From an uncultured Planctomycetota bacterium (GTDB lineage: Bacteria > Planctomycetota > Planctomycetia > Isosphaerales > Isosphaeraceae), in NCBI GenBank assembly GCA_963823665.1, contig CAWGMQ010000010.1, forward strand, positions 96,001-160,000: a DNA stretch of 64,000 nucleotides, given 5' to 3'. The notes beneath the pieces are model-generated. The model saw only the letters and a list, made by a program, of their open reading frames with translations, searched no databases and was not told where the DNA came from. Positions 551 through 19,600 of the stretch are shown piece by piece; position 1 is the stretch's first letter, and every line of letters starts with the position of its first letter. The position numbers were made by a program, and so were the translations under genes.

Positions 551-1072
551 CTAAGACCGGGCGGGGAAGACGCCTTGCAAGGCGATGATGTAATTCAGGA
601 CCAGGAATGGCTGACGGTTCTCATGGGGTTGGCCGCCGCCAGCGGAGGTGGTCGCCGCAGCGGACATCGCGCCAGGCGGCGTCGAGGTACCGTAGGGGGT
701 GTCCGTCCCCGGTCGGGCCCAATCCGCGCCCGACGGCGAATTGGTGTCGCCCACTCGGCCGAAGGCGAGCGCTCCATGGGAATGTGCGGCCAACTGGCTC
801 AGACTCAGCGTGACCGAATCGGAGCCGCCGGTTTGACCCAGGTTGTAATTGCTCAAGCCCGTCCCCTGACCCGCGCAGGTCGCCGTTCGTCCTTGGAGAT
901 TCGGCAGGCCGAAGGTTGACTTGCCGTCACCTCCGAAGTTGGTTCCCAGCAGCGAGAACAACGCCGGATTCTGTGAGATGGGGAGAATCTGGCCATTGCA
1001 CAACGCCCACCCCTGCGGGGCAAAGTTATAAGGGACGGGAATTACCTGGCCGAGGAACGGCGTCTGAGGCAT
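551..1072 (-). CDS. Phage tail-collar domain protein (microcystin-dependent protein-like), paralog 1
   Basis: PFLGQV..FAPQGWALCNGQILPISQNPALFSLLGT.FGGDG.STFGLPNLQGR; C-terminal HENRQPFLVLNYIIALQGVFP. Confidence 0.92.
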   Translation of the reverse strand: MPQTPFLGQVIPVPYNFAPQGWALCNGQILPISQNPALFSLLGTNFGGDGKSTFGLPNLQGRTATCAGQGTGLSNYNLGQTGGSDSVTLSLSQLAAHSHGALAFGRVGDTNSPSGADWARPGTDTPYGTSTPPGAMSAAATTSAGGGQPHENRQPFLVLNYIIALQGVFPARS

Positions 1073-1207
1073 CGCATCATCTCCTGGTTTTTTCGTGGGG
1101 AGTCGTTTTCAATTTGTGGGCAATCTGCTCGCGCACCCACGGTCAGCCACCGCGCTGGCCCTGGTGTCGCGGCAGGGGCCCCATCGGCGGCGGGAACGTT
1201 GGGAAGG

Positions 1208-1726
1208 TCAATTCTGAGTTGGGAAGATTCCCTCCAGAGCGATGATGTAGTTGAGTGCCTGATAAGCCATCAAGTTGGCGTGCGGCTGATTGCCTCCGGC
1301 CAGACCGATCGCGCCCGGGGCCATGCTGGCCGCGCCCGTTGTAGCGGACTTGTAAGGGTTGTCGTTAGAGGCCTGGGCCCAAAGCGCGTTCACTGGCGAT
1401 CCGCTGTTGCTCCCCCCGGTGAAACACTGGGCTTGGTGGGTGTGACTGGGGACCTGGCCGCTGGTGAGCGTCACGCTCTCGGACCCACCGACTTGGCCGA
1501 TCGTGTAATTGCTCGTGCCGTTCCCTTGACCCTGGTGCAAAGGAATGCGGCTGCGCAGGTCGGGCAGGGCGAACGTTGTTTGCCCGTCACCTCCGTAGAT
1601 CGTGCCGATCAGTTGAAACAGCACCATATTCTGGTCGATCTGCAGGAGCTGGCCGTTGCAAAACGCCCAACCCACCGGCGCGAAGGTGAAGGCCACCAGG
1701 GTGATCTGACCAATAAAGGGCTCCAC
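1208..1726 (-). CDS. Phage tail-collar domain protein, paralog 2
   Basis: EPFIGQI..FAPVGWAFCNGQLL..YGGDGQTTFALPDLRSR..LNYIIALEGIFP. GTG start at 1726 follows GAAGGAG. Confidence 0.92.
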   Translation of the reverse strand: MEPFIGQITLVAFTFAPVGWAFCNGQLLQIDQNMVLFQLIGTIYGGDGQTTFALPDLRSRIPLHQGQGNGTSNYTIGQVGGSESVTLTSGQVPSHTHQAQCFTGGSNSGSPVNALWAQASNDNPYKSATTGAASMAPGAIGLAGGNQPHANLMAYQALNYIIALEGIFPTQN

Positions 1727-1798
1727 TTGTCGTGCTCCTTCCGATCGTCGCGGGCGGCGCAGGCCCCGCTCGAGCCTCGCTTCCACGAGATCAAGAAA

Positions 1799-2308
1799 TT
1801 AGTTTCTAGAAGGGAAGATGCCCTGAATCGCGATGATGAAATTGACGACGAGAAAAGGCTGAAGGTTGGAATGCGGCTGCGAGTTTCCGCTGGGAGTGAT
1901 CAGGCCGGCGGCCATCGATCCGTTGGGATTGGATCCCGTTTGATAGAGCTTCTCGCCTGAGGACGACCCGGCCCATACCTGACTGGCTGGATCTCCGACG
2001 GTCCCTGCCTGCGTGGAACACATCGGCGCGTGCGAATGGAGCGGGATCTGGTTGCCATTCAGGGTCACGCTTTCGACCCCGCCCGTGCTGCCCAATTGAT
2101 AGTTCGGGCCGCTCTGGACGCTGACGCGCCCCCTCAGGTCGGGCAGCGCGAAGGTATGGACCCCATCGCCGCCATAAGTCACTCCCAGCAACGAGAAGAG
2201 GGCCTGATTCTGCGCGATCGGTAGGATTTGACCGTTGCAGAATGCCCACCCTTTTGGAGGAAACGGGAATGCGACTGGAGAGATTTCACCGAGGAAAGGG
2301 TCTGCCAT
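1799..2308 (-). CDS. Phage tail-collar domain protein, paralog 3
   Basis: MADPFLGEI..PPKGWAFCNGQILPIAQNQALFSLLGVTYGGDG..FALPDLRGR..NFIIAIQGIFPSRN. ATG at 2308 follows GAGGTGA. Confidence 0.92.
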   Translation of the reverse strand: MADPFLGEISPVAFPFPPKGWAFCNGQILPIAQNQALFSLLGVTYGGDGVHTFALPDLRGRVSVQSGPNYQLGSTGGVESVTLNGNQIPLHSHAPMCSTQAGTVGDPASQVWAGSSSGEKLYQTGSNPNGSMAAGLITPSGNSQPHSNLQPFLVVNFIIAIQGIFPSRN

Positions 2309-2395
2309 CGTGATCACCTCGTGATATTCGTTGACCTCGGGGAGCAGATACCGCCATCCGCCTCCAGATTCGACTCGCACCGCAGTGAAAAACCA

Positions 2396-2710
2396 TCAGT
2401 TGAAAATGGCCTGATAGTGCAAGCCGTTCGAGCTTCCCTCGGGCCCGAGGGGAACCAGGAAAATCCCAAGCGTGCCCCGCGTGGGGTGCTCGATCGGATA
2501 AATCTGCTGCGGAAGGAGCCGGTCGCGCGGGCCCCTGAAGATCAAGGAAAACGCCTGGGCCCGGATTTCGGGTGAAGCCGGCCGGTGGCACTCGCCGATC
2601 GTGTCGGCCTCGATCAATTCGAGCTCGAGCACGTCTCCCGACCCAAGTGACACCCGGAACGTACGATTCACGTGTCCGATGAAGTCAGAGACAGTCAACT
2701 GATCGAGCAT
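2396..2710 (-). CDS. DUF6916-like protein associated with tail-collar clusters
   Basis: MLDQLTVSDF..LELIE..FSLIFRGP..LPQQIY..H..G.LGIFLVPLGP..YQAIFN; located next to the tail-collar triplet. Confidence 0.8.
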   Translation of the reverse strand: MLDQLTVSDFIGHVNRTFRVSLGSGDVLELELIEADTIGECHRPASPEIRAQAFSLIFRGPRDRLLPQQIYPIEHPTRGTLGIFLVPLGPEGSSNGLHYQAIFN

Positions 2711-2979
2711 GTGGCACCCTGCGGCCTCAAGCCGCGGAGCAGAGGGCGGAGGCCCAGATTCGCCTCGGATCCGAGCGCCCAAAGGCACCTCGTGCTCTCC
2801 GAGGGGCCCTTGCTCATCGCTGTCTCGGGCAGCATAGTTAATATCACGCGAGAGCGACTGTCAAGGACCATGTGGATTTCGAGCGATCTCCATGGCGAGT
2901 TCGGCCCGATGGGTTTCGACCCCGGGTCTCGCACGAAGGGAGTGATGAGGTCGCTGACCTACAACAGGACGGGACCGCC

Positions 2980-3511
2980 ATGCTAGGTCGAACCTTGACG
3001 GACCGTGTGCGAGGGCCCCTGGCCGGCTCGATCGGTCTCCGGCCCGCCGTCGCGGCGGATGAGCCATTTTTGTACCGAGTTTTTGCGAGCGACCGCGCCC
3101 GAAGAACTCCGGCTCGTCGACTGGGACGACAACCAGAAAGCGGCCCTTCTGAGGATGCAGTTCGTCGCGCAGAATGCCTCCTACCGCCAGGCTTTCCCGG
3201 GCTCGGCTTTTGAGGTGATCCTTAACGGCGGTCAACCGGCCGGCCGCCTCTTCCTGCACCGCGGCACCGAGTTGATCCGCGTCGTCGACATCGGCCTCTT
3301 GCCCGAGCACCGGAATCAAGGGATCGGCGGCGCGCTCTTGAAGGCGGTGCTAGACGAGGCCGCCGAGGCCGACAAAACGGTGCGGCTCCGCGTCGAGTCG
3401 TTGAATCGGGCCGTGAGGCTGTATGAGCGCCTCGACTTCGCGTCGATCGGTACCGACGGAGCCCACATCGAGATGGAGTTCGTTCCCAGGATCCCGAACG
3501 AGGGCCACTGA
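2980..3511 (+). CDS. GNAT N-acetyltransferase, apparent frameshift near 3090
   Basis: N-part LRPAVAADEPFLYRVFAS lies in one frame. The next frame continues with MQFVAQNASY..IRVVDIGLLPEHRNQGIGGALL (acetyl-CoA motif A)..NRAVRLYERLDF. Confidence 0.85.
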
Positions 3512-3955: not shown

Positions 3956-5726
3956 GTGAAGATAACAAGCGCGTTTCTGGCCGCGTGCGTCGTCTGGGCG
4001 GCGTTAGTCGCCCCGAGCATTTCCACGTCCGCCGGCGAGCCGACCCGCCCGCGCCCCGACGTTATGATTCTCGAGCGATTGAAAGACGTCGGCTTGAGCG
4101 GCGCTCAGACAGCCGCGATCAAGAAGTTGTCGGCCGAGCTCGATTCGCGCCTCGGCGAGCTCGAAGCGAAAGCCGCGCCCACTCCCGCGCAGCGGGCTGC
4201 CCGCGAGCGGGCGCTTCGAAAAGTAATTGCCGAGGGCAAGCGAGGCACCGAGGCAAGACCAATCATCGCGGCCGCCTTCGCGCTCTCGAACGAGCAACGC
4301 CACGCCGCGGCGCAGATCGGTATCGTGCGCGACGAGTTCAACCGCTCCGTCTTCTCACTCCTCACCGAGACGCAAAAGAGAATGCTCGCAGCGTCGGAGC
4401 ACCGACTCGACGAGTTCACCGGCTTCATCATCGTGCGATTGGCCGGCGACGTACCCAGAGAGGCTCGACGACGCAAGAAGCCTCGACGACGTCGCCCGTG
4501 CGCAGAACCTGACCGGCTTGCGCGAGGTGATCGTCGCCTTGGGATTGAACGATACCGAGCGCCTGGTTCGCTTCGTCCCCGATTCGCACGCGCCTGACCC
4601 CGACAGGCAGCGCGACGTCGATGCACTGGCCCGCCGGCTCCGTTCATACTGGCGAATCGATGCTCGCTCGAAAAACGCGCCGGTCGATACAATCCTCCGC
4701 CGGCTGCAGGCCACTCCGGGAATCGATTTCGCTTATCGTGAATCGGCGATCGGCACTCCATCACAGATTGATCCGAACGAGAACCCATACTTCCCGCTTC
4801 AGGGTTATCTGGACGCTGCACCCACCGGCATCGATGCCCGCTTCGCCTGGAGGAAGCCCGGCGGCGACGGCGCGGGCGTCGGTTTCGTCGACGTCGAGGA
4901 CTGCTGGAATACAAATCACGAGGATTTGAAAGGACAATCGCCGACCCTGATTTTCGGCGACGAAATCGCAGGTGACCACGGCACCGGCGTGCTGGGCGAG
5001 TTGGTCGCACAGGACAACAAGGTGGGCATAATCGGTGTCGCGCCGTCTCCTGCATATGTATTCTTGACGAGCTGGCTCGAGATCGGCGCGGCGACGGATC
5101 GCCTGGTGGAAGGCGTCGTCCTGTCGGCGATTCTGATGAATCAAGGCGACGTCTTGCTTCTGGAAGTGGAGCGCTACTACAAACCGGTCGAGCTCTGGGC
5201 CGCCGACTTCGACGCCTTGCGGTTTGCGACCTCGCTCGGCATTGTCGTGATCGAGCCGGCCGCCAACGGCGACTACGATCTCGACGGCACGCCGGATCCC
5301 GCGGGCCGATTCGTCCTCAATCGGGCCTCGGCCGACTTTCGCGATTCCGGGGCGATCATGATCGGCGCATCTGATCCGATGGACTCGCACAACCGTGCGC
5401 CGTTCTCCTGCTATGGCTCGCGCGTGGATTGCTTCGCGTGGGGCCGATACGTGGTCACGTGCGGGGGGGGCGACCTCGACGCTGGCGGCGGCAATCCCAA
5501 CAAGACATACCGAAAGGCGTTCAACGGCACCAGCGCCTCGGCTCCGATCGTGGCCGGCGCAGCCATGATCTTGCAGGCGAGAAGAAAGGTCCGCGGCAAG
5601 CGTCCGCTCACCTCCGAAGAGATGCGTTCGCTGCTCGCCGATCCCCGTACCGGCACTTTGCAGGGCCCGCGCGTCCCCGGTAACATCGGCGTCATGCCCA
5701 ATTTGCTGCGCCGTCATCGACGCTGA
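3956..5726 (+). CDS. S8 subtilisin-like serine peptidase with signal peptide and N-terminal helical LTxxQ-type domain, apparent frameshift near 4460
   Basis: Catalytic Asp (FVDVED), His (DHGTGVLG), oxyanion Asn (AANG) and Ser (GTSASAP); also GIDARFAW..GGDG and YGSRVDCFAWG. The N-terminus VKITSAFLAACVVWAALVAPS follows GAGGAG in ORF 3785-4597 and joins ORF 4227-5726. Confidence 0.88.
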
Positions 5727-5795
5727 AGACGCTGGGCCCAACCGCAAGAACAACCGTTAGACCCTCTTTCACCCCGACGTCGAGGAGCTCTTCCC

Positions 5796-6245
5796 ATGGC
5801 TTCAGTTGACATCACCGTGGCAACTTCCGTTCTCGCGCTCTTGCGCCGTGATGTAACGGCGAGCTGCATCGCCGATCGCTATGGCGTCACCGAGGCCCAG
5901 GTCCTCGAGTGGCAGGATGTCTTCGTCCTGGCCGGTTCGCTGGCGCTGGCCGAATTCCAGCGCGGTGGCAAGGTCTTTGCGCATCTGGGCGAGGTGTGCG
6001 ATCCTGACACAGATGGCGACAACGGCAACGGCGGTCTGGGCCCGCCGACAACCAAGTCATACCTTCGCCATGGCAAGGGCGGTCTGGGCCCGCCGACAAC
6101 CAAGTCATACCTTCGCCATGGCAAGGGCGGTCTGGGCCCGCCGACAACCAGGTCATACCTTCGCCATGGCAAAGGCGGTCTGGGCCCGCCGACAACGAGC
6201 TCATCCCCTCACCATACCAAGGCAGGTCGAAGGCGACGAACATGA
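5796..6245 (+). CDS. Putative multicore precursor peptide: HTH-like ~78-aa N-terminus plus four 16-aa repeats
   Basis: GAGGAG RBS upstream. Repeats are GGLGPPTTKSYLRHGK x2, GGLGPPTTRSYLRHGK and GGLGPPTTSSSPHHTK. The stop overlaps the next start (ATGA). The CDS is solid; the precursor role is inferred. Confidence 0.75.
   Translation: MASVDITVATSVLALLRRDVTASCIADRYGVTEAQVLEWQDVFVLAGSLALAEFQRGGKVFAHLGEVCDPDTDGDNGNGGLGPPTTKSYLRHGKGGLGPPTTKSYLRHGKGGLGPPTTRSYLRHGKGGLGPPTTSSSPHHTKAGRRRRT
6030..6221 (+). repeat. 48-bp in-frame tandem repeat, 4 units
   Basis: Units 6030-6077 and 6078-6125 are identical. 6126-6173 has 2 substitutions. 6174-6221 is diverged in its 3' half. Confidence 0.97.
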
Positions 6246-8515
6246 GCCGTCATGCTCTGACAATCGGCATGGCCGCATTCGACGACTTCGAGGGCGTTTA
6301 CTTCACCGTCACGTCGCTCATGATCCATCACCCGGGCGCGATGGATGATTGTAACATCCTGGTGGTCGACAATAACCCGGCATCACGCCATGGCAGGCTC
6401 ATCGAGGAGTGGATCGCCGATCTGGCGCCGCACGCAGAGTATCATCCGTTTGCAGACGCGACCGGAACCGCCCAGGCACGAAACGAAGTATTCCGCTGCG
6501 CCACCGGCCGCGCCGTGCTCTGCATCGATTGCCACGTGCTCCTGGCTCCCGGCGCTTTAGAGCGGCTGATCGACTACTACGCGGCCAATCCGAACACTCG
6601 CGACCTCTTGACCGGCCCTTTGCTCGACGATTCGGGCCAGATCGCCGCCACCCACCAGCGGCCACAGTGGAGCGACGGCGCCTGGGGCGTCTGGGCACTG
6701 GACCACCGGGCCGAGCTGCCCGACTCCGAGCCTTTTCCAATCTGGCAGCAGGGAATGGGCCTCTTCTCCTGCACGAAGGAAGCCTGGGTCGGCTTTCATC
6801 CCGCCTTTCGCGGATTCGGCGGCTGTGAATCCTACGTCATGGAGAAATTCCGCCAGAACGGCGGTAAGGTCCTCTGCTGTCCCTGGCTTCGCTGGACGCA
6901 CCGATTCGAGCGCCCGCATGGCGTCCCTTACCGGGTTTCGCGGCAAGACACTCTGCGAAATTATTTGATCGGTTTTCAGGAGCTCGGCCTGGACCCTGCG
7001 CCGGCGCTGGAACATTTCAAAACGTTGCCCGGTGAAGGGCGATCACCGTTCCAGCTCGCCGCCCCGGCGACGACAAGCGAGTTCTCTGTCGTCGGCGAGC
7101 CGGCTTCCGGAGCGGTGTTGATGCGCGGCGAAACGCTGGCGCGCCATCTCGCTTGCAGACTCATTCGTCCCGCAGAGGTGAACGGCGAGTCGCGCCGCGA
7201 GGCGATCGTCGCCGTCAAGTTAGGCTGCGGTGCCGCCCGCATCCGCGACCGGTGCGATCGCCTGATCTATGACCCGCTCGACGCGTTTTGCGATGACAGT
7301 GCCGATCTTGATCCCGCTCTTTACTGGCGTGCCCGTTATCGCGAGCTTGCGTTTGACGATATCATTGCGACCAGCCCGGCCTGTGCGGCGGTCATGCGCG
7401 ACGCGCTGCCGGAGCGCGTCTCCGTCCATCTCGCGCCGCATCACGCAGACCCCCGGATCAACGCGAGCTGGCGAAACAAGGACGGGCCGATCGTCTACGC
7501 CGGCCTCGAGCGCTTCATCGCCTCGGGTTTGGATCGAATCCGCCAGGCATGCCGGATGGTCGGAAAAGAGTTCATCGCCGGCCCGGACTGCGACGTTCTC
7601 ATGGGTGCCTCGCTGGCGCTGGCGCTGCGGCTGCCGCCGCACGACACCGAGCTCAACCGACGATGCAAGCCGCAGATCAAGATCGCCAACGCCATCGCGG
7701 CCGGCATGGCCGTCGTGGCGACCGACTGTCCGGCCGCGACGTCGCTCTATCCCGAGGTCGTCACGGTTCCGGTCGATTTTTCGGCCGCTGGGCTCGCCGA
7801 TGCGTTCCGCCGCGCACTCGCCGCCCGGTGCCGGCCGCGTCACTACGGTCTCGGCGATTTCCTGGCCTCGATGGACCGGATCCTCGGGCGCGAGGCGCTC
7901 GTCGTCTACACAGCGGTCTTCGGTGGTTACGACGTCCTGCGCGATCCGGTGGAACTCACGCCTGGCGTTCAATACGTCTGTTTCACCGATAATCCCCGAT
8001 TGCGGTCCGACACATGGCACATTCGCTACTGCCCGCCGTCGGGCAATCCGCTCATGCAGGCGAAGGAGTGCAAGATACTGGCGCACGAGTTTCTCGACTG
8101 CGACATTTCGCTCTGGATCGACGGTCGCACTTTGCTTCATAGCTTGAACGGAGTCTTCGACCGGCTCAGGGCCGATCTCGCGCTGTGCCGCCACCCCACG
8201 CGCGATTGCATCTACGCCGAGGCCGAACACTGCAAGCACGTGCGGCGTGGCGATCCGCAGTTGATCGACCGTTCGGTCGCCCGCTTCAAGGCCGAAGGGC
8301 ATCCGCCCGGATCTGGGCTCTGGCTCGGCGGAACGCTATTGCGGCGCCACACGGCCGCAACCAGAGTCTTCAATTGTGAATGGTGGCGCGAGGTGACAAC
8401 CGGCACGTCGCGCGATCAGATCAGCCTGCCGGTGGTTCTGCGCCGGCTCGGCTTTACGGTCGACGTGCTGCCGCCGGACGCGCCCCTCATGGAAGTCGGT
8501 AATCACGCGCGCTGA
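6242..8515 (+). CDS. Multidomain glycosyltransferase: GT2-like + GT-B(GT4)-like + DUF616 (TOD1/MUCI70-like)
   Basis: N-domain: IGMAAFDD..ILVVDNNP..ARNEVF..VLCIDCHV..GFGGCE. Middle: LIYDPLD..KPQIKIANAIAAGMAVVATD. C-domain: VVYTAVFGGYD..YVCFTDN..KILAH..SLWIDG..HPTRDCIYAEA..RRH..WW.E..RDQISL. Confidence 0.85.
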   Translation: MSRHALTIGMAAFDDFEGVYFTVTSLMIHHPGAMDDCNILVVDNNPASRHGRLIEEWIADLAPHAEYHPFADATGTAQARNEVFRCATGRAVLCIDCHVLLAPGALERLIDYYAANPNTRDLLTGPLLDDSGQIAATHQRPQWSDGAWGVWALDHRAELPDSEPFPIWQQGMGLFSCTKEAWVGFHPAFRGFGGCESYVMEKFRQNGGKVLCCPWLRWTHRFERPHGVPYRVSRQDTLRNYLIGFQELGLDPAPALEHFKTLPGEGRSPFQLAAPATTSEFSVVGEPASGAVLMRGETLARHLACRLIRPAEVNGESRREAIVAVKLGCGAARIRDRCDRLIYDPLDAFCDDSADLDPALYWRARYRELAFDDIIATSPACAAVMRDALPERVSVHLAPHHADPRINASWRNKDGPIVYAGLERFIASGLDRIRQACRMVGKEFIAGPDCDVLMGASLALALRLPPHDTELNRRCKPQIKIANAIAAGMAVVATDCPAATSLYPEVVTVPVDFSAAGLADAFRRALAARCRPRHYGLGDFLASMDRILGREALVVYTAVFGGYDVLRDPVELTPGVQYVCFTDNPRLRSDTWHIRYCPPSGNPLMQAKECKILAHEFLDCDISLWIDGRTLLHSLNGVFDRLRADLALCRHPTRDCIYAEAEHCKHVRRGDPQLIDRSVARFKAEGHPPGSGLWLGGTLLRRHTAATRVFNCEWWREVTTGTSRDQISLPVVLRRLGFTVDVLPPDAPLMEVGNHAR

Positions 8516-8566
8516 CCCTCGCCGCCACCCCCGAAGACCGTATGATTGGGCACAGAGACTCTCCTC

Positions 8567-9944
8567 ATGAAATGCAGCATCATCCTGCCCGTGCTCGACA
8601 GCCATGAAATCTTCCGGCGCCAGATGGTCCGATTCGAAAAGATTTTGCCGGCCGATTTCGAGGTGATCGTCCTCGACGACGGCAGCGACATACCTCTCAC
8701 GTACGACAGGCGCGTCCCCTTCCCGTTCAGGTTGCTGCACACCAATGACAAACGCCCCTGGACCAACGACCTCGCTCGCAACAAGGGCGCCGCCGTTGCA
8801 TCGGGCGAGTACCTCCTTATGATGGATGTCGACCATGTCTTGACGCGGGAAGCGCTCGACCTCGTCCTCCGCTTTCGTGGTGACATGCTCAAGTTTCACC
8901 GCCAGGTCGCTGACCTCGACGAGCATGGCGAAGTTCGCAATATTCGCGAATCGCTCGCCCCGCACCCCAATACCTTTGCAATCAGGAAGTCGCTCTTCGA
9001 GCGAATGGGTGGATACAATCCCGAATACCTCGGCTATGGCGCGCATGATTCGCGCTTTCGGGAGCGATATCAGGCGCTCGTCGACCACGGCCGTGCCGAG
9101 CAAGTCGAATTGGCCGGAATGATCTATGTCGTCACCGAAGCAAAATGGTTTCACAACCTCGAACGGCAGCCGGCGCGTGAGTCACCCGCCCACGTCGGCT
9201 CCATTTCTACTCACGCAGGAGATCTCGTGAAAAGCCCGAGTAGGCCGGAAATCACAGGCCCGCCGCGCGAGCTTCTCGGTGATTGGACGTCGTTTCGGCT
9301 CGAGGATTGGAAGGAAGACAGGAACCACAAGTTCTTGAACCGAAACGACCACCTTGAAAGACAGTGGCGCCGCCTTCATGAACTCTTGCCCGAATACCTG
9401 CCGCGGGAACCGCGGCGCCGGTTCCTCGACGTCGGCTCCGGTAATGGCGCCTCGTTGGAGATCCTCCGGTATCTCGGCCACGATGCTGAAGGTTCTCGAC
9501 TTCACCCCGGGTATCTCCGACCTGGACGGCACCGACTGGGTGTACCGCCCGTTGATCGAGTCGCAACGGCTCAAATGCACCGTCCATGACGGTGCAGTCG
9601 TTCCCTATCCCTACCCCGACGCTCAATTCGATGTGGTGATCTGCTACGGAGTCCTCACATGTTTTCAGCCGTGCAGTCTCTGGCCGCAAATCTTCGACGA
9701 GTTTGCCCGGCTAGCGAAGTCATGCATCCTCCTGGGCGTCAACGTGGGCGAACGCTACGACATCGGCAAGTCAGTCATCGAGAAATGGCGACATCGGGAT
9801 CTCGAATTGACCTATAACGAAGGCGCAATCTACAAGTGGCAGCGAAAACCCGTTCGCGCCCCCTCCGCCGCCGTGCAAGGCCGGCAGAAGAGAGCAGCTC
9901 GACTTCCCCTGGTGTTTTCGGGATCGCGCGTGCGGCCCACCTAG
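8567..9944 (+). CDS. GT2 glycosyltransferase fused to class I SAM methyltransferase, apparent frameshift near 9490
   Basis: GT2 motifs: MKCSIILPV..EVIVLDDGS..ARNKGA..GEYLLMMDVDH..MGGYNP..YGAHD. MTase motif I: RFLDVGSGNG. It continues in ORF 9354-9944 with PYPDAQFDVVICYGVL..EFARLAK. Confidence 0.82.
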
Positions 9945-9950
9945 CTGTGA

Positions 9951-12900
9951 TCACCCACGATTCGACCGCGCCACGCGAAATCCGATCGTAATACTTCGAT
10001 ACAACGGCTTGTTTCCGTCCCGCCTCCCCACCGAGGCGATCAGCGCCGAATAATCGAAGGCGCCGCCGCGCAGCACGCGTTCCCCGTCCTTGGGAGGCGG
10101 CGACCGGTCCTGGCACCATTCATACACGTTGCCGTGAAGATCGAACACGCCCCAGCCGTTCGGCAGCTTGCTGCCGCAGACCGCCGTCTGATTCGACTCG
10201 AACACCGCGTACCGCGCGAGCAAGCCGTCGTCGTTTCCCGAGGCGAACTGTGTCGTTGCTCCGGCGCGACAGGCGTATTCCCATTCCACTTCGGTCGGCA
10301 GTCGATATCCGTCCGCCGCCCCATCCAGGGCCCAATCTCCCTTTGATGCGACATAACAAGGCGTGCGCCCCTCGATGCGGCTGAGCCAGTTGCAAAACAG
10401 GATCGCATCGTACCAACAGACGTTCTGGACCGGGTGACTCATGGTCGGGCTGCGCGCGGGATCCGCCCCAATCCAGCCGCGCGGCTTGGCGTCCGCGGCT
10501 GTGTCCGGATCGTCGATGAACTGCTGGAAGAGCGCGCGCGACGTTTCGCAATCGCTCAGCCAGAACGCCTCGATCCGATCGGGGTGCTTTGCGTCGTCGC
10601 GCGGTTCCAGCGCCGCCGGCCGGCCGGCGGGAATAAGCAGCATCGTCATCTTCACGCGATTGACGTGCCATGGAAAACCCGGTTGCGGCTTGTTGGACGC
10701 GGCAATCTCCGGCAACGGCTGTTTCCACTGCCGAAGCGCCCATCCCGCCGCGCTGTGCGTCCCTCCGTCGCGCTGAGTGCGATACCATGCCACGAGCGTC
10801 GCCACCGCTGCGCCCATCTCGCTCGGAGACATCGCGGCGGGCGGAATAGAGCCGATTCCCGAACAGACCCCCGAGCGAAACCACGTCGGCTCCAGATCGG
10901 CCACGTGGTCAAGGAGTCGATTCACGGCGCCGTGCCAGGTCGAAAGTGATTCGATGAGCAGCGTTCGCTCAGCCGGATCTTCCGCGAGCGCGAACATTTC
11001 GCGCGCCACGCTCGGCTCGCCGAGCTGGAGCAAGAGGACCGCAAGTCGAGCTTCGAGTCGAAAGTCTTTCTCCGCGTTCGCTCGAACGGCCGATTGCACA
11101 AGCGGTCCGATCGCGACGCCCCGGCGGTGCTGGAGTGCGGCCACCAGGTTGGCGCATTCGTTGGGTGGGGCCGTTCCTGCGCTGTCGAGCAGATCCTTGA
11201 GACGTACGTCGCCGAAGGCGGCGAGCAACACGGCCGCACGGAGTCGGCGCGGCGAGTCCGGCGCCGCTCCGTCAAAATCCCGCTCGAGCATTCGGACGAC
11301 ATGCTGCCCTAGCGGATCGAGATTGCCAATCGCGTAGGGAACCGCGTCGGCCGGCGCGTTCAGCGCGGCGTCGACGGCGAGCCGGTGCGTTCCCGGTCGC
11401 TCTCTCGTTTCTGCTCGGCAAGAATGCGGTCTTGCTGCGCGACGTACATCCGCAACGACGCCCCCAGGGCGGCCAGCAAGAGGAGGGCCGCTCCGAGGCG
11501 GAGGCCGTGAAACCTCGCCGCCGCGCGCATGATCCGTCGTTCGGAATCGCTCCAGGTCCGCCGGCGAGTCAGCAAGCGCATCCCCAGGTATTCAATCGAT
11601 GTCGGCAGCCGCTGATTCGCGGGCCTCGCGCCCCAGTTCGCCGCGCATTCCGAAAGGCGCAGCTCTGCCCGGCCGCGCCACGTTTCCTTCCGCTTCCGCG
11701 TCAACCAGTCGCGCAGGCTCTGAACCAGATAATCGTGGGTCAGTTGGTAATAGCCGTCGGCCGCGTCGTGGCTCGAATCGCCCTCGAAGCCATCGGGGTC
11801 CGTCGGTGTGATCAGCCGCAATTCGCCGTCGAGGATGCGCAGCACATCGTCAAACTCGTTGGTGTCTCGGCAGCCCGATGCATGCAGCAGGTCGCGGTAC
11901 GAGCGCATGTTCGTCTTGATGTCGGTGCCGGCTTCCGGCAGCAGCGATTGCAGCACGGCGCGCGCCCCAGCCTGATGGGCGAGATGTTCCGGGTTCGCCT
12001 CGCGCGCCGCAAACGACTCTTCGAGAAAATTGACGCCGACTCCGGTCGCACCGCCGACGGCGTCGAGAGTGGCAGGGACCCAGGGTTTGCCCTTGACCAT
12101 TTCCGCGAGCAGCGCCAGGCGCACGCAAATGACTTTTCCTTCGTGTGCCAGACCTCTGGCGGCGTCGTCGAGGAACCGCTTGTGCTCTTCGGCAAGCTCG
12201 TTGGAGCTCCTCGGCAGCCGGCCGAACGCCCGGCCGAACTTGGCGAGGACGTTCCGCGCATGATCGACGTCGAAGAGATCGACGGCGGCGAAGTTGTCCC
12301 CCTCGATGATCCGCGCTTCCAGCTCGCGCATGAACCGCCAGGCCGCCATCGCAAAGTCGTCGCGAACCATCACGACCACCTGCACATGTTCGCCGTCGCA
12401 CTGTCGCAGCGCGCTCACCAGCTCCGTATTCTCTTCCCCACGCCTCGCATGGAGCCACTGCTCGAACTGGTCCAGGATTAGCAGCACCTTGTGCTCGCGC
12501 GGCAGCACTCGCCCCCGTCGAAGGGTTGCCAGCGCAGCGACCAACCCCAGGTCTACAGCGAGTTCAGGGCAAACTTTGCGTAAACCCTTGAGCAGCCGTG
12601 CCTCTGTCTCCTCCGCGGTCGCCTCGACGTAGACCGAAAGGATGTTCTTGTCGAGCCGAGGCAGAAGTCCTGCCTTCACGAGCGACGACTTGCCGCAGCC
12701 TGATGGACCGTAGATCAACCCCACCTTGAACGTCCGGTCAGGATCGAGCTGCTCGATCTTCCGTTTCCAGAATCGGAGGCTTTCGGGCAGTCCCTCCCGA
12801 TCGCGCGGTGCCGGCAGCAATTCCAGAAAGAATTCGGCATCCCCCTCGTCGAAGGATCGCAGTCCCTTGGGCACGATCGTGGTCGATTGCCCGCCCGAGT

Positions 12901-13913
12901 CGGACGGCTTGGCTGTTGATGGTGTCAGCAGCGCTTCCTGAGTGGAGCCGCCCGGCGTGGATATTGGAGCCGCCGGAGCGGCCGGCGAGACCGTGCCCCC
13001 TGTCGTTTCCCGGAACAGAAGCAGGTCTTCGGCCATGTCCATGGCGGTGTTGTATCGCTCCGAAGCTCGCTTGCTCATCGCCTTCAGGCAGATCCGTTCC
13101 AGCTCCTTCGGAATCCGGTCATCGATCTGGCGCGGTGGGCGAGCTTCGACCGTCGCGATCAGGTCCAGCAATTCGTTCCGGGCTTCGTCCGTGTCCGTGG
13201 CCTGGGCGACAAACGGCCGCCTCCCGGTCAGCAGCTCGTAGAAAATGACGCCCAGACTGAAGACGTCCGAGCGGCCATCGACTCGATGACCCTCCCCTCG
13301 AGCCTGTTCGGGACTCATGTACGAAGGTGTTCCCGCAATCCCTCGACCCTTGCCAAAGTCCTCGTCTCTGAGGGCGGAGACCGAAATCGGCGACGAACGC
13401 CTTCCCCGTGCCGTCGACCAGAATGTTGGCGGGCTTGATGTCCCGATGCACCAGCCCCTTTGTATGTGCGTAGTGCAGGGCTTCGGCGACGGTTGCCACC
13501 AATCCCACTGTCTCGTGGAAACGGAAACGTGTTTCCTTCATCCGGGCGGCAAGGTCACTCCCCTCGATGCACTTGGAAACGACGAAGCACAATCCATCCT
13601 CGGTGCGCCCCACGTCATAAACCGGCACGATGTGGGGATGGTCAAGATTGGCAACGATGCGGGCTTCGGTGAGGTATGCCTCGATAAGCTCCGGCTGCGA
13701 GACTCGCTCCCGGCGCGGGACTTTGATCGCAACCCGCCGCCCGAGCTCCTCGTCAATGGCCAGGAAGACATCGCCGAACCCGCCCTTCCCAAGTCGACTG
13801 CGAATCGCGTACCGCCCGATCTTGAGCGGATCGAGAAGAGATGAATACTCTTCGGAGTCTTGAACGGATGGGGTGAATCCCTGAGTGGAAGCCAGATTCT
13901 CGGAATCGTCCAT
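9951..13913 (-). CDS. Ser/Thr kinase - nSTAND1 NTPase - TM - FGE-sulfatase (SUMF1-like) fusion, apparent frameshifts near 13380 and 11365
   Basis: Kinase: [29 protein letters not shown]. NTPase: Walker [10 protein letters not shown] and Walker [52 protein letters not shown]. Spread over three ORFs. Confidence 0.88.
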
Positions 13914-14092
13914 CACGCCAGCTCCAGCAATGGCCGCTGTCTGATTTCAGCCGGCCGATCCCATTCTCGCATACTGAACTGGCAAGGCATAGAACGAACT
14001 GCAACGTTCGTGCGACTGAGTTCACAGTCCACTTCGCATCGACCACGTTGACCAACCACTGAGGAGACTGAGCCGAAACTCATCCTGCCGCG

Positions 14093-16652: not shown

Positions 16653-19600
16653 TCATTTCAGCGTCGTCGTGTAATTCATCCCGCCATCGAGCGGGCGCCC
16701 TAGCAGATCGAACAAACCTGCCGCGTTGACCGTCAGCTTGACCGGCGGGTTCAGCACCAGCGCCTTGCGCGTCGTGAGCGTCACCGTTGTGGCGCTCGCC
16801 GTGTAGCTCGCACTCGTCAGAGCGACTGCTGCCGGCTTTTGCTTCTTCTTCGCCGGCACCGTCACCAGGCTGTACTCATTGATGTTCTGCGCGTCGGCCA
16901 TGTTCAGCCCGCCGCTGAACTGCACCACGATCACCTCGACTGACTTCTTCTTGACCTTGGTCTTCTGGATGGAAACTCGCTCGACGGTGACGAGCGCCGG
17001 GTTCACTGTGAGCTGACCGGAGACGAAATCCGCCGGCGGGAACGTGTAGTTCGCGGCCGCGAGCGTGCCGGCGCTCGACACCATGATCGTGTACACGCCC
17101 GCCGCGGTCGACGACGTGACGGTCGGCGAGGTCGCCAGCACGGGCGCTCCCAGCACCACGCTCGCCGGGTCGCTGTTCACAAACCCGGTGATCACAAATG
17201 CCGAGGGCCCCGTCAAGCTCGGCACCGGCCCGCCCTGAGACATCGAGGCGTTCTGCGCTGTCACGAAAAGCGGCGCCGGCTTGACCGAGAGCATTCCGTT
17301 GGCCGTCGTGAACGTGTAGTTGTCGGCCGAGAGCGTTCCCGAGTTGACCGTGATCGGATACGGTCCGCCTGCGACACCACTTCGCGAGGTGGCCGTTGTT
17401 GAGAGCACCGGCGCTCCACTGACGACGCTCGCATCATCGCCGGCGACGAATCCCGTGATCTGGTACGCGGAGGGAAGATTCAAATTGGGCACGGTCGAGC
17501 CGTAGAGCATCGACGTGTTCTGCGCCGTGACCACAAGCTGCGCGGGGGTGACTGTCAGCTCGCCGTCGAAGACATTTTCATCATCGAACGCGTAGTTCGA
17601 GTTCGAGATCGAAACGCTGCTGACATCCACGACGATCGGATATGTGCCGACCGGGCTTGCCGACGTCGCGGTCGTCGTGACGAAAGGGTCGCCGGTGAGG
17701 ATGCTCTGGTCATCGTCATTCACAAATCCTTCGACCTCATAATCATTGCTCACGTCGGGAACCGGATCGCCATAGACCATGGAGATAGGCCCGGCCGAGA
17801 CCGAGAGAATCACCGGTGTGACCAACAGCAAGCCCGGCAGAAACGTGAACGTGTAATTTGCGGCGTTCAGCGTGCCCTGCGCGATCGTGATGGGATAGCC
17901 GGAATTGCCGTTGTCCAGAACCGGGCTCATGGATGTCGCGGTCGTGGTGAGCTGCGGCGCTCCGGTGAGCACCGTGTCTGTCTCGTTATTGACAAATCCG
18001 CTGAACGAATACGTCAGGTCCGGTAGCGTGGTCGAGCCGTAAGTCATCGAGCCGTCGTCTGCGGTCACGGTCAATTGGGCAGGTGCAACGCTGACGTGCT
18101 GTGTGGTCACCTGGTCCGCGACCTCCTGCACCATGTTGTATCCCGAGTTGGCGATGAACACGTCGCCCGCGCGGTCCACGGCGATCCCGTCCGAATCGCT
18201 GAAGAAGACGCCAAAAGGCGATCCTGTGTACGTGGGACTGCCGGAGCCGAAGGTACTGCCGGCGAACGCGCTGGTGGCATGAGTCCCGGCGTGAATCTCG
18301 TAAACAAGTGAATTGCCGGCGCAGACAAAGACGTTTCCCGTGGCGTCGACAGCAATGGCAGACGTGCCATCGTAGTTTCCGCTGCCGATCGCAATGATCA
18401 CGCCGGGCGCGGCCGCGCTGACCTCGCAGACAGAAGCGTCGCCATTGTTCGCGATGAAGAGGTCGCCCGCCGCATCGACCGCCACCCCTGCGGGGTCGAA
18501 CAGTCCACCCGACGGCGGGCCATCGTCACCGGAGGCACGAGGCGTGCCGGCAACGGTATTGATGATGCCCGTGGCGGCGCTCACTTCGCGAATCACGTAG
18601 TTATAGGTGTCGGCAATGAAAAGATCGCCGGCGGCATCCACGGCCAGTCCCTCGGGCCCATCGAGCTTGGCAGATGCCGCAGCACCGCCGTCTCCGGAGA
18701 ATCCGCCCTGGCCGTCGATGCCGGCGAAGGTGCTCTCTGTGCCGTCAGAAAGCAGGCCGTCCGGCCCGGGAGCGACCTTCATGACGTAGTCGTCAAGAGA
18801 GAATGAGATGAAGAGATCTCCCGAGGAGTCCACCGCAAGCCCGTACATGTCGTTAACAAGCCCGCTCACGACCGTGGTAATCGTGCCGGTCGCGGCACTG
18901 ATCTCGCGAATCTCGCCGTTGTAGGTGTCGGCAATGAAAAGATCGCCGGCCGAGTCAGTCGCCAGCCCGCGCGGACCATAAAGCGTGGCCTTGACCGCCG
19001 GCCCGCCATCGCCGCCGCTACCCTGATTGTCGTAGCCTTGCCCGGCCACCGTGTGGATGACTGCCGCGGCCGGCCCGGTCGAAGTACTCGGCCCATACGT
19101 GGGGGAGCCGCCATACGAGGCAAAGACAGAGTCGTTCCCGGCCGGAAGCAACATTGTTGAGAATGTCGCCATGCCGGTGACGAGCTCGGCCGTCCCGATC
19201 GTCTGGCTCCCGAGGATAAAGCTGACCATTCCGCCCGCGGGCGTGGTGGCGCCGGCCGGATTGGTCGTGACGGTGGCTGTAAAGGTTTCCTGGTCGCCGT
19301 AATTGATCGAGGCCGCCGAGAGCGCCAGCGTCGTGAGCGTGGGCGTTGAACCCATCGCAGCCGCGATCGTGAGCGTGCCTTCAACCGGTTTGGTCAGCGC
19401 GTAATTCATGTTGGCCAGCGTTCCCATGCTGGAAAACTGGATCGGGTATTGTCCTGCCATACTCGAGTCGACAGCCGAGGTTGCCGCAACCGGGAAAGCA
19501 CTGAAGACGCTGGCCTCCGTGTCGCCATTGACAAATTCGTCCGCCGGAATCGTGTAAGTGAACACCGGCAGTGGCGCGCCCACCGAGATCGACTGGTCGT

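What the first reader, a model, noticed from the sequence alone, without database searches (positions are those of the whole stretch)
5796..6245. Precursor anatomy: HTH-like leader, acidic spacer, four GGLGPPTTxSxxxHxK cores and a basic tail
Seen: residues ~10-52 (VLALLRRDVTASCIADRYGVTEAQVLEWQDVFVLAGSLAL) follow the pattern of transposase/DUF1153-like HTH domains. They are followed by DPDTDGDNGN, four 16-aa units and AGRRRRT. G-G-L-G-P-P-T-T, S10, H14 and K16 are invariant even in the diverged fourth unit. Unit 3 differs only by K>R and one synonymous change, which suggests selection at the protein level. The K-GG junctions are candidate cleavage sites. Inference: an HTH fold has been co-opted as a leader, as Nif11 and NHLP folds were. 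The alternative is a DNA-binding protein with a glycosylated, mucin-like tail.
Basis: partly seen in the sequence, partly recalled or inferred. Interest (0 to 1): 0.78.

Follow-up and report, generated by a model that had tools for sequence, protein, structure and literature searches.

The report
Mucin-like peptide with its own glycosyltransferase
A small bacterial protein joins a conserved transposase-type helix-turn-helix head to a highly variable tail whose one constant feature is a Pro-Thr-Thr motif, and it sits in front of an enzyme whose closest solved structures are the animal enzymes that start mucin glycosylation, so the tail is likely sugar-coated on those threonines; a co-inherited kinase gene next door may encode a receptor for the product.

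Summary
The anatomy is real (149-aa ORF, four 16-aa units). In 57 family members the ~55-residue three-helix HTH head is conserved and the tail is hypervariable. Thr-Thr is in 51 of 57 tails and P-T-T in 36; K-GG is in only 5, so the proposed cleavage sites and the selection argument fail. In all 11 loci with downstream sequence the next gene is a glycosyltransferase whose first domain best matches polypeptide GalNAc-transferases (GT27; Z 22, versus 14 for the glycocin enzyme SunS). Elsewhere this domain follows Thr-rich proteins in 44 of 73 viral and 15 of 23 cellular loci, against 6 of 370 control tiles. The head resembles transposase HTHs but is acidic across its turn and recognition helix. 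An exported S8 protease lies upstream in 5 of 11 loci. A kinase-nSTAND1-FGE gene of one clade lies downstream in 7 of 8. Best reading: a dedicated mucin-like acceptor for a bacterial GT27-like enzyme, with the HTH likely co-opted as a leader. Cleavage, export and sensing are not shown. No description was found in ten literature searches.

The parts
5796..6245 (+). 149-aa acceptor/precursor gene (the finding)
   Evidence: 58-member family incl. itself; single copy in its genome
5796..5960 (+). Conserved three-helix HTH head (residues 1-55), transposase-HTH-like, acidic turn and recognition helix; inferred leader
5961..6029 (+). Linker incl. acidic spacer (residues 56-78); conserved only in the nearest subclade
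6030..6221 (+). Four 16-aa units, each with G-G-L-G-P-P-T-T; the P-T-T matches the family motif G-x-G-[D/E/P]-P-T-T; predicted O-glycosylation sites
6222..6245 (+). Basic tail and stop; not a family-wide feature (15 of 57)
6242..8515 (+). 757-aa three-domain glycosyltransferase: GT27 (ppGalNAc-T)-like domain at about aa 1-265; GT4-like domain at about aa 275-550; TOD1/MUCI70 domain at about aa 551-757; no hydrophobic segment
3956..5726 (+). S8 subtilase with N-terminal hydrophobic (signal-like) segment; frame break near 4461; intact as one ORF in L003 and L075; optional member
8546..9944 (+). GT2 glycosyltransferase plus methyltransferase, as two overlapping frames (8546-9589, 9354-9944); the variable tailoring slot of the locus
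   Evidence: other loci carry other GT/methyltransferase genes here
9951..13916 (-). Convergent Ser/Thr kinase - nSTAND1 NTPase - hydrophobic helix - FGE (C-type-lectin fold) gene, in three frames here (13119-13916, 11360-13318, 9951-11291); one clade across the loci; candidate receptor

Best explanation
The 149-aa protein is likely the dedicated acceptor of the three-domain glycosyltransferase encoded right behind it, whose first domain matches mucin-initiating polypeptide GalNAc-transferases and would put a sugar on the Thr-Thr of each P-T-T unit, while the conserved HTH head likely serves as a folded leader or handle rather than binding DNA. Shown: the conserved head and hypervariable tail, the Thr-Thr/P-T-T motif, fixed gene adjacency, the GT27-like fold and motifs, the HTH fold and its acidity, and co-inheritance with one kinase-STAND-FGE clade. 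Inferred step 1 (about 0.8): domain 1 O-glycosylates the threonines in the cytoplasm with a HexNAc (donor unknown). Step 2 (about 0.6): domains 2 and 3 and the variable downstream GT/methyltransferase genes extend and cap the glycan. Step 3 (about 0.6): the head is a protein-interaction module, not a DNA binder. Step 4 (about 0.35): the head is removed, in some lineages by the exported S8, giving glycopeptides, as in a RiPP. Step 5 (about 0.3): the FGE/C-type-lectin domain of the convergent kinase senses the product. The four copies here multiply the acceptor sites by recent duplication.
For: Motif: TT in 51 of 57 tails (shuffle mean 27, max 37 of 2000); 56 P-T-T sites against a shuffle mean of 5.7 (max 15); TT in 37 of the 43 members retrieved only with the head-only alignment A2. 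Adjacency: the GT is the next gene in window, L003-L007, L030, L068, L069, L075 and L076. These 11 GT domains form one clade among 72 sequences (FastTree 1.0), and head and GT identities covary over 10 loci (Mantel rho 0.68, p 0.0004). Enzyme: the best PDB sequence hit of the domain profile is GalNAc-T10 (E 7.7e-9, profile 32-232, with DxH, GGE and the H-x-F/Y-R region aligned). The model (pLDDT 92) gives Foldseek rank 1 GalNAc-T2 (E 4e-14, TMq 0.77) and VIA ranks 1-2 mouse GalNAc-T1 (Z 22.2, rmsd 3.8, 254 aligned) and Toxoplasma GalNAc-T3 (Z 21.3). The same domain follows Thr-rich ORFs (8 or more Thr in 20 aa within 800 bp upstream) in 15 of 23 other cellular loci against 6 of 370 tiles, and in 44 of 73 viral loci against 0 of 73 antisense and 4 of 67 downstream tiles; several carry G-E-P-T-T-T. 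Standard GalNAc-T acceptors are P-T-T-rich (PMC6202839, PMC3825155; passages). Head: net charge over residues 26-45 is negative in 56 of 57 members (mean -2.5) against 3 of 15 weak-hit transposase-like HTHs (mean +1.1). Kinase: 7 of 8 loci, one clade 100/99.
Against: No activity, donor or product is shown, and identity to GalNAc-Ts is only 14-20%; chondroitin polymerase scores Z 19.3, not far below. Six of 57 tails lack TT (two look truncated) and 21 lack P-T-T. The window's own units are far poorer in Thr than the phage partners and would not pass the threshold. There is no conserved cleavage site (KGG 5 of 57; GG at the helix end 22 of 57). The S8 is missing upstream in 6 of 11 loci and is predicted to be exported, while the acceptor has no signal-like segment; an exporter lies nearby in only 1 locus (L068). 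Over the recognition helix alone, 8 of 15 comparison HTHs are also acidic, so charge does not exclude DNA binding. Covariation and clade membership show co-inheritance, not binding; many loci are kin. Three of the five genes at this locus have frame breaks, so this copy may be decaying or mis-assembled.
Confidence: 0.62

Rival explanations
1. An intact DNA-binding regulator with a switchable tail: the HTH binds DNA, and the P-T-T threonines are glycosylated by the GT or phosphorylated by the linked Ser/Thr kinase, the two marks competing.
For: The HTH fold is kept and strongly conserved. Acceptor, GT and kinase domain are all predicted cytoplasmic. The kinase is more constant (7 of 8) than the protease (5 of 11). 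ECF sigma genes adjoin the kinase in L003 and L030. No cleavage motif is conserved.
Against: The turn and recognition helix are acidic in 56 of 57 members, and the recognition helix has no K or R in this protein. Helix 3 ends in a conserved hydrophobic stretch. Multi-domain GTs and variable methyltransferases suggest an elaborated glycan rather than a one-sugar switch (inference). The same GT domain also follows unrelated heads (PqqD-like in L036, a 131-aa ORF in L037/L050, phage tail proteins), so the head is exchangeable.
Confidence: 0.2
2. A domesticated phage glycosylation cassette used in defence: the cell makes a mimic of the phage fibre glycan on a small carrier, as a decoy, a self mark or a guarded target for the kinase-STAND-lectin sensor.
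For: The GT27-like domain has 132 relatives in viral contigs and lies in a prophage tail region in G598. The nearest look-alikes of domain 2 are mostly phage clusters. STAND proteins with C-terminal FGE/CLec domains are proposed invader sensors (PMC10907252 and PMC8195603, passages). L004 has a TIR gene downstream. The module is patchy: 2 of 401 class genomes, 3 of 22 in one genus, 4 of 301 in one family.
Against: The deep branches of the GT tree are unsupported, so a phage-to-cell direction is not shown. The genome holds about 20 long paralogous kinase-nSTAND1 matches, which points to a general signalling family. One member of the kinase clade (L079) has no GT or acceptor within the 19 kb read. 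An exported protease is not an obvious part of such a scheme.
Confidence: 0.14
3. A transposase remnant or assembly artefact: a decayed insertion-sequence HTH with a low-complexity tail that happens to sit in a glycosyltransferase operon.
For: The head resembles transposase HTHs. Units 1 and 2 are identical, and no listed contig piece bridges the repeat.
Against: An open, conserved head is found in 57 proteins, adjacent to the GT in 11 of 11 informative loci, single-copy in the genome, with a conserved tail motif far above shuffles and 2 or more P-T-T units in 17 of 57 members. None of those 11 loci shows a transposase gene following the head.
Confidence: 0.04

Closest known systems
Mucin-type O-glycosylation by polypeptide GalNAc-transferases (CAZy GT27) and the lectin-less GT60 GlcNAc-transferases
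   Same: GT-A domain with DxH and GGE motifs whose best sequence and fold matches are GalNAc-Ts; Pro/Thr-rich tandem acceptor.
   Different: Bacterial, no membrane anchor and no ricin lectin domain, fused to two further GT-like domains, and encoded beside one dedicated small acceptor. 14-20% identity; donor unknown. GT27 is described for animals and GT60 for protists in PMC8724618 (passages); no GT60 sequence was compared.
Glycocins (sublancin/SunS type glycosylated RiPPs)
   Same: Small precursor gene beside a GT-A enzyme acting on Ser/Thr/Cys (family traits recalled).
   Different: SunS scores Z 13.6 against 22.2 for GalNAc-T1. There is no four-Cys helix-loop-helix core, no conserved double-glycine leader and no linked peptidase-transporter.
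RiPP precursors with co-opted folded leaders (Nif11, NHLP/nitrile hydratase) and multi-core precursors (cyanobactins)
   Same: Conserved folded N-terminal domain, hypervariable C-terminus with variable copy number, S8 protease in some loci.
   Different: The leader is transposase-HTH-like. No Nif11/NHLP/PatA-PatG model matched. No YcaO, LanM or radical SAM gene was seen in the loci. The conserved element is the modification site, not a flanking recognition sequence.
Phage mucin-like fibre plus GT27-like enzyme (earlier scan finding e1-1110416; not a published family)
   Same: Same enzyme domain and same Thr-rich-partner rule, reproduced here in 44 of 73 viral loci.
   Different: Chromosomal operon, a 75-149 aa HTH-headed acceptor instead of a virion protein, a three-domain enzyme, and a linked protease and kinase; the head family was not found in viral contigs.
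nSTAND1-FGE/CLec putative invader sensors (PMC8195603, PMC10907252)
   Same: Kinase + nSTAND1 + C-terminal FGE domain in the linked gene.
   Different: The passages read describe no linked acceptor or GT27-like enzyme; no DGR was noticed in the loci (not searched for).

Membership tests
GT27 ppGalNAc-T (for GT domain 1) | GT-A catalytic fold closest to GalNAc-Ts | tested here: met
   Foldseek rank 1 GalNAc-T2, E 4e-14; VIA Z 22.2, rmsd 3.8, 254 aligned
GT27 ppGalNAc-T (for GT domain 1) | DxH metal motif and Gal/GalNAc-T (WGGE) motif | tested here: met
   D96 and H98 invariant in 27 of 27; G193, E196 and H220 invariant; aligned to DSH, WGGE and GH of GalNAc-T10/T3; W is replaced by F. Motifs as in PMC3825155
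GT27 ppGalNAc-T (for GT domain 1) | Type II membrane anchor and C-terminal ricin lectin domain | tested here: not met
   No hydrophobic segment; no ricin Pfam hit, other GT-like domains follow
GT27 ppGalNAc-T (for GT domain 1) | Transfers GalNAc from UDP-GalNAc to Ser/Thr | not testable with these tools
   needs an assay
RiPP (general) | Precursor with conserved leader and variable core | tested here: met
RiPP (general) | Co-encoded modifying enzyme | tested here: met
   11 of 11 loci with downstream sequence
RiPP (general) | Leader binds the modifying enzyme | not tested
RiPP (general) | Leader removal by a dedicated protease | tested here: inconclusive
   S8 upstream in 5 of 11 loci, full-length ortholog only in G000 among 401 genomes, but predicted exported and no conserved site
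RiPP (general) | Linked exporter | tested here: inconclusive
   ABC/HlyD/OEP trio divergent in L068 only; several loci are short contigs
Glycocins | SunS-type GT2 enzyme | tested here: not met
   SunS listed at rank 32, Z 13.6, against 22.2
Glycocins | Disulfide-bonded helix-loop-helix core with conserved Cys (recalled) | tested here: not met
   no Cys in the four units; tail disordered in the model
Glycocins | Double-glycine leader and peptidase-containing transporter (recalled) | tested here: not met
   GG at positions 54-59 in 22 of 57; no C39 hit in the one linked ABC transporter
Cyanobactins | PatA/PatG-type S8 proteases and conserved recognition sequences flanking variable cores (recalled) | tested here: not met
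   NCBIfam gave only weak mycosin/dentilisin hits for the S8; flanks are not conserved
Nif11/NHLP-leader precursors | Nif11 or nitrile-hydratase-like leader domain | tested here: not met
   no such Pfam family among 23 matched by 53 members at E<=0.05; none in NCBIfam for three members; the model is an HTH
IS transposase HTH proteins (HTH_Tnp_1, DUF1153, IS630) | HTH sequence and fold similarity | tested here: met
   similarity is weak, and VIA Z 5-6.5 is generic
IS transposase HTH proteins (HTH_Tnp_1, DUF1153, IS630) | Followed by a DDE/integrase ORF, multicopy | tested here: not met
   followed by the GT in 11 of 11 loci; one copy in G000
IS transposase HTH proteins (HTH_Tnp_1, DUF1153, IS630) | Binds DNA | not testable with these tools
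   charge only:
nSTAND1-FGE/CLec sensors (for the linked gene) | Effector + nSTAND1 + C-terminal FGE domain | tested here: met
   Pkinase, nSTAND1 and FGE-sulfatase in L003, L068, L076; window in pieces

The most novel reading that the evidence does not exclude
A new class of bacterial glycopeptide signals: a transposase HTH domesticated as a leader delivers mucin-like Pro-Thr-Thr cores to a bacterial GalNAc-T-like enzyme shared with phages; the multi-sugar glycopeptides are released by an exported subtilase and read by a co-inherited kinase-STAND-C-type-lectin receptor, giving a glycan ligand-receptor pair and the first candidate ligand for the uncharacterised STAND-FGE sensors.
Probability: 0.2. 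Interest if true: 0.92.

Novelty: new variant of a known kind. Interest (0 to 1): 0.74.

Why it matters
Mucin-type O-glycosylation initiators (GT27/GT60) are described for eukaryotes (PMC8724618), and mucin glycoengineering in E. coli relies on the human enzyme or on O-OSTs (PMC13345888; passages read). A soluble bacterial relative with a natural short acceptor and fused extending domains is directly testable and of practical use. It would add a DNA-binding fold to the list of co-opted leaders, and mucin-type glycosylation to the list of precursor-peptide modifications. STAND-CLec sensors are stated to be experimentally uncharacterised (PMC10907252); here one clade travels with a glycan-making operon, which names a ligand to test.

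Tried and rejected
K-GG cleavage sites: 5 of 57. Double-glycine leader: 22 of 57. Selection from copy comparison: not supported. Single-sequence PDB search with the GT: 0 hits; the head profile gave 4 hits at E 0.17-0.67, uninformative; the full-length GT profile gave no hit for domains 2-3. PHROGs on 27 GT domains: 0 families. NCBIfam: nothing above cut-off. Head family in viral contigs: 42 pattern matches, none confirmed. P0059 (LysM transglycosylase) and L010 (20-residue match) were dropped as false hits; P0051 was dropped from motif counts (no W-x-D-x-F anchor). Dropped before the Thr-rich count: L035 (154 bp upstream), L048/L055/L058 (domain-3 hits only), L062 (duplicate of L049), and 7 of 80 viral loci (under 800 bp upstream); only the best 80 of 132 viral relatives were kept by the tool. 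Kinase tree: L072 and 3 of 29 paralog loci were dropped (match under 200 aa). Reads: no RNA holder listed; contigs are short and low in depth, and none listed bridges the repeat or the frame breaks. The first charge comparison used 8 of 17 HTHs picked by a pattern and was replaced. Literature searches with no description of this system: (open-access library only; supplements not looked at). Papers seen as passages only: PMC8724618, PMC13345888, PMC7470986, PMC7794033, PMC10907252, PMC8195603, PMC7159879, PMC3825155, PMC6202839; all others as search listings only. Earlier-findings look-ups by place and sequence were empty.

Full report
Observation. The ORF at 5796-6245 is as described: 149 aa, an N-terminal domain, an acidic spacer, four 16-aa units (6030-6221) and a basic tail, with its stop overlapping the start of a 757-aa glycosyltransferase gene. 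The 48-bp repeat is the strongest tandem repeat of the window. Units 1 and 2 are identical; unit 3 has one synonymous and one non-synonymous change; unit 4 has five non-synonymous and one or two synonymous changes. This gives no sign of protein-level selection. The closest relatives (P0002, P0003) have one P-T-T unit and end like unit 4, so the array is best read as a recent expansion. Public contigs do not bridge it. The window is G000:C10:96001-160000, and the gene is single-copy there. The host is inferred from its relatives to be a planctomycete.

The family. Three searches gave 58 proteins including this one; 57 were analysed. The first ~55 residues are conserved and the rest is hypervariable. 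The constant feature of the tail is Thr-Thr: 51 of 57 tails, against a shuffle mean of 27 and maximum of 37. There are 56 P-T-T sites in 36 tails (shuffle mean 5.7), typically in the context G-x-G-[D/E]-P-T-T, and 17 members have two or more. Of the 43 members found only with the head-only alignment, 37 have TT, so the motif is not a search bias. KGG is in 5 of 57 tails and a basic tail in 15 of 57, so these are local features.

The head. AlphaFold gives three helices (2-16, 22-29, 33-55) at high confidence and a disordered tail; fold matches are generic HTHs at Z 5-6.5. Pfam HTH_28 and HTH_23 match 31 and 26 of 53 members weakly, the Atlas places the head by homeodomain-like, DUF1153 and HTH_Tnp_1 clusters, and the weak genome hits of the head profile look like transposase HTHs. 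Over residues 26-45 the family is net acidic in 56 of 57 (mean -2.5), against 3 of 15 comparison HTHs (mean +1.1); over the recognition helix alone the comparison set is 8 of 15 acidic. This favours, but does not prove, loss of DNA binding.

Gene neighbourhood. In all 11 loci with downstream sequence (window, L003-L007, L030, L068, L069, L075, L076) the next gene is the same GT; it is complete in 8 of them, at 52-65% identity to the window copy. L008 and L009 end too early to tell. An S8 protease with a signal-like segment lies directly upstream in 5 of 11 loci with upstream sequence (window, L003, L005, L006, L075; absent in L004, L007/L008, L030, L068, L076, L009), and its full-length ortholog was found only in G000 among 401 class genomes. 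After the GT comes a variable slot of further GT or methyltransferase genes. A convergent kinase-nSTAND1-FGE gene follows in 7 of 8 loci; L004 has a TIR gene and its contig ends there. G000 has about 20 such long kinase-nSTAND1 matches, yet the seven linked kinases form one clade with a single G000 paralog (100/99), apart from 25 other paralog rows. A hydrophobic helix between the NTPase and FGE domains passes the threshold in 4 of 6 tested. The module is rare and patchy. At this locus the S8, the GT2/methyltransferase and the kinase each have frame breaks; many kinase paralogs are split too, so assembly error is plausible but untested.

The enzyme. Domain 1 (aa 1-265) is labelled GT2 by Pfam, but the profile of 27 homologs hits polypeptide GalNAc-transferases best and over the whole catalytic domain, with DxH, GGE and the following His aligned. 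The model (pLDDT 92) ranks GalNAc-Ts first in Foldseek and VIA (Z 22.2 and 21.3; chondroitin polymerase 19.3; SunS 13.6). It lacks the membrane anchor and the ricin domain. Domain 2 is GT4-like, with mostly phage look-alikes, and domain 3 is TOD1/MUCI70. Homologs of domain 1 without an HTH-headed neighbour follow Thr-rich ORFs in 15 of 23 cellular loci against 6 of 370 tiles, and in 44 of 73 viral loci against 0 of 73 antisense and 4 of 67 downstream controls; many of these loci are kin, so the tests overstate. The partners include prophage tail-region proteins (G598), a PqqD-headed ORF with T-T-P-P repeats (L036) and ~131-aa ORFs ending in TT (L037, L050). An earlier finding of this scan (e1-1110416) reached the same enzyme assignment for the phage pairs; I saw it. 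The 11 HTH-linked domains form one clade, and head and GT identities covary.

Mechanism. Shown: pairing, motif, folds, co-inheritance. Inferred: domain 1 attaches a HexNAc to the TT of each unit (about 0.8); the other domains and tailoring genes extend the glycan (0.6); the head is a leader or handle (0.6); the head is cleaved (0.35); the product is sensed by the kinase's FGE/C-type-lectin domain (0.3). The gaps are the lack of a conserved cleavage site and of an export route between a cytoplasmic acceptor and a predicted exported protease and sensor domain. The rivals are a DNA-binding regulator whose tail is glycosylated or phosphorylated (0.2), a phage-glycan mimic used in defence (0.14) and a transposase remnant (0.04).

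Comparison with what is known. It works like mucin-type O-glycosylation of a dedicated acceptor, organised like a RiPP locus. It is not a glycocin, a cyanobactin or a Nif11/NHLP precursor by the features tested, and membership of the RiPPs is open because leader binding and removal are untested. The enzyme is GT27-like in fold and motifs but not a canonical member. RRE-Finder treats HTH domains as non-RiPP false positives (PMC7470986, passages), so such loci would tend to be filtered out of that kind of mining. STAND-FGE proteins are proposed sensors without experimental characterisation (PMC10907252). Ten searches of the open-access library found no description of this module; subscription papers and supplements were not seen.

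Verdict. A real, conserved and apparently undescribed module. New variant of a known kind; interest 0.74.

Noticed in passing
L036:725-1351 (same locus as L070): A PqqD/RRE-like domain fused to T-T-P-P repeats, directly before a GT27-like gene: a second kind of head on the same kind of acceptor.
   Followed up: partly
L037:1097-1495 and L050:598-993, oriented coordinates (wider loci L071, L072): ~131-aa ORFs of no recognised family ending in TT, between a co-oriented kinase-nSTAND1-FGE gene and a GT27-like + GT2 + methyltransferase fusion; the L071 kinase lies outside the clade linked to the HTH type.
   Followed up: partly
L192:3472-19998 (G598): Prophage tail region: a tail protein with G-E-P-T-T-T/G-A-P-T-T-T repeats followed by the GT27-like gene, further GT-like genes and a methyltransferase-like gene.
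   Followed up: partly
L008:369-3269: rmlA/rmlD/rmlB-like nucleotide-sugar genes directly upstream of a family member, and a Rhamno_transf-domain gene after the GT in L003; a hint that rhamnose may be in the glycan.
   Followed up: no
L004:13449-13850: TIR-domain gene after the methyltransferase, where other loci have the kinase.
   Followed up: no
L068:1651-7256: ABC transporter, HlyD and outer-membrane efflux genes divergent from the acceptor gene; seen in this locus only.
   Followed up: no
L076:10453-10872: Family member with a fully mucin-like tail: a Thr run followed by six 6-aa Pro/Ser/Thr repeats.
   Followed up: yes
window 551-3511: Three similar tail-collar-type ORFs (Pfam Collar confirmed for one), a DUF6916 gene and a GNAT acetyltransferase, just upstream of the locus.
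   Followed up: no
window 3956-13916: Frame breaks in the S8, the GT2/methyltransferase and the kinase; assembly indels or decay, not resolved.
   Followed up: partly
window 16653-21116: 1487-aa protein with NHL, Big_3 and MBG repeats, likely a surface protein.
   Followed up: no
window 58131-58310: G-G-G-T-T repeat inside a 1516-aa minus-strand ORF that looks secretin-like by eye; another Thr-Thr repeat in the window, not linked to the GT.
   Followed up: partly
window 41059-41160 and 26678-27680: A perfect 24-bp x 4.2 repeat, and a set of Gly-rich 9/27-bp repeats.
   Followed up: no
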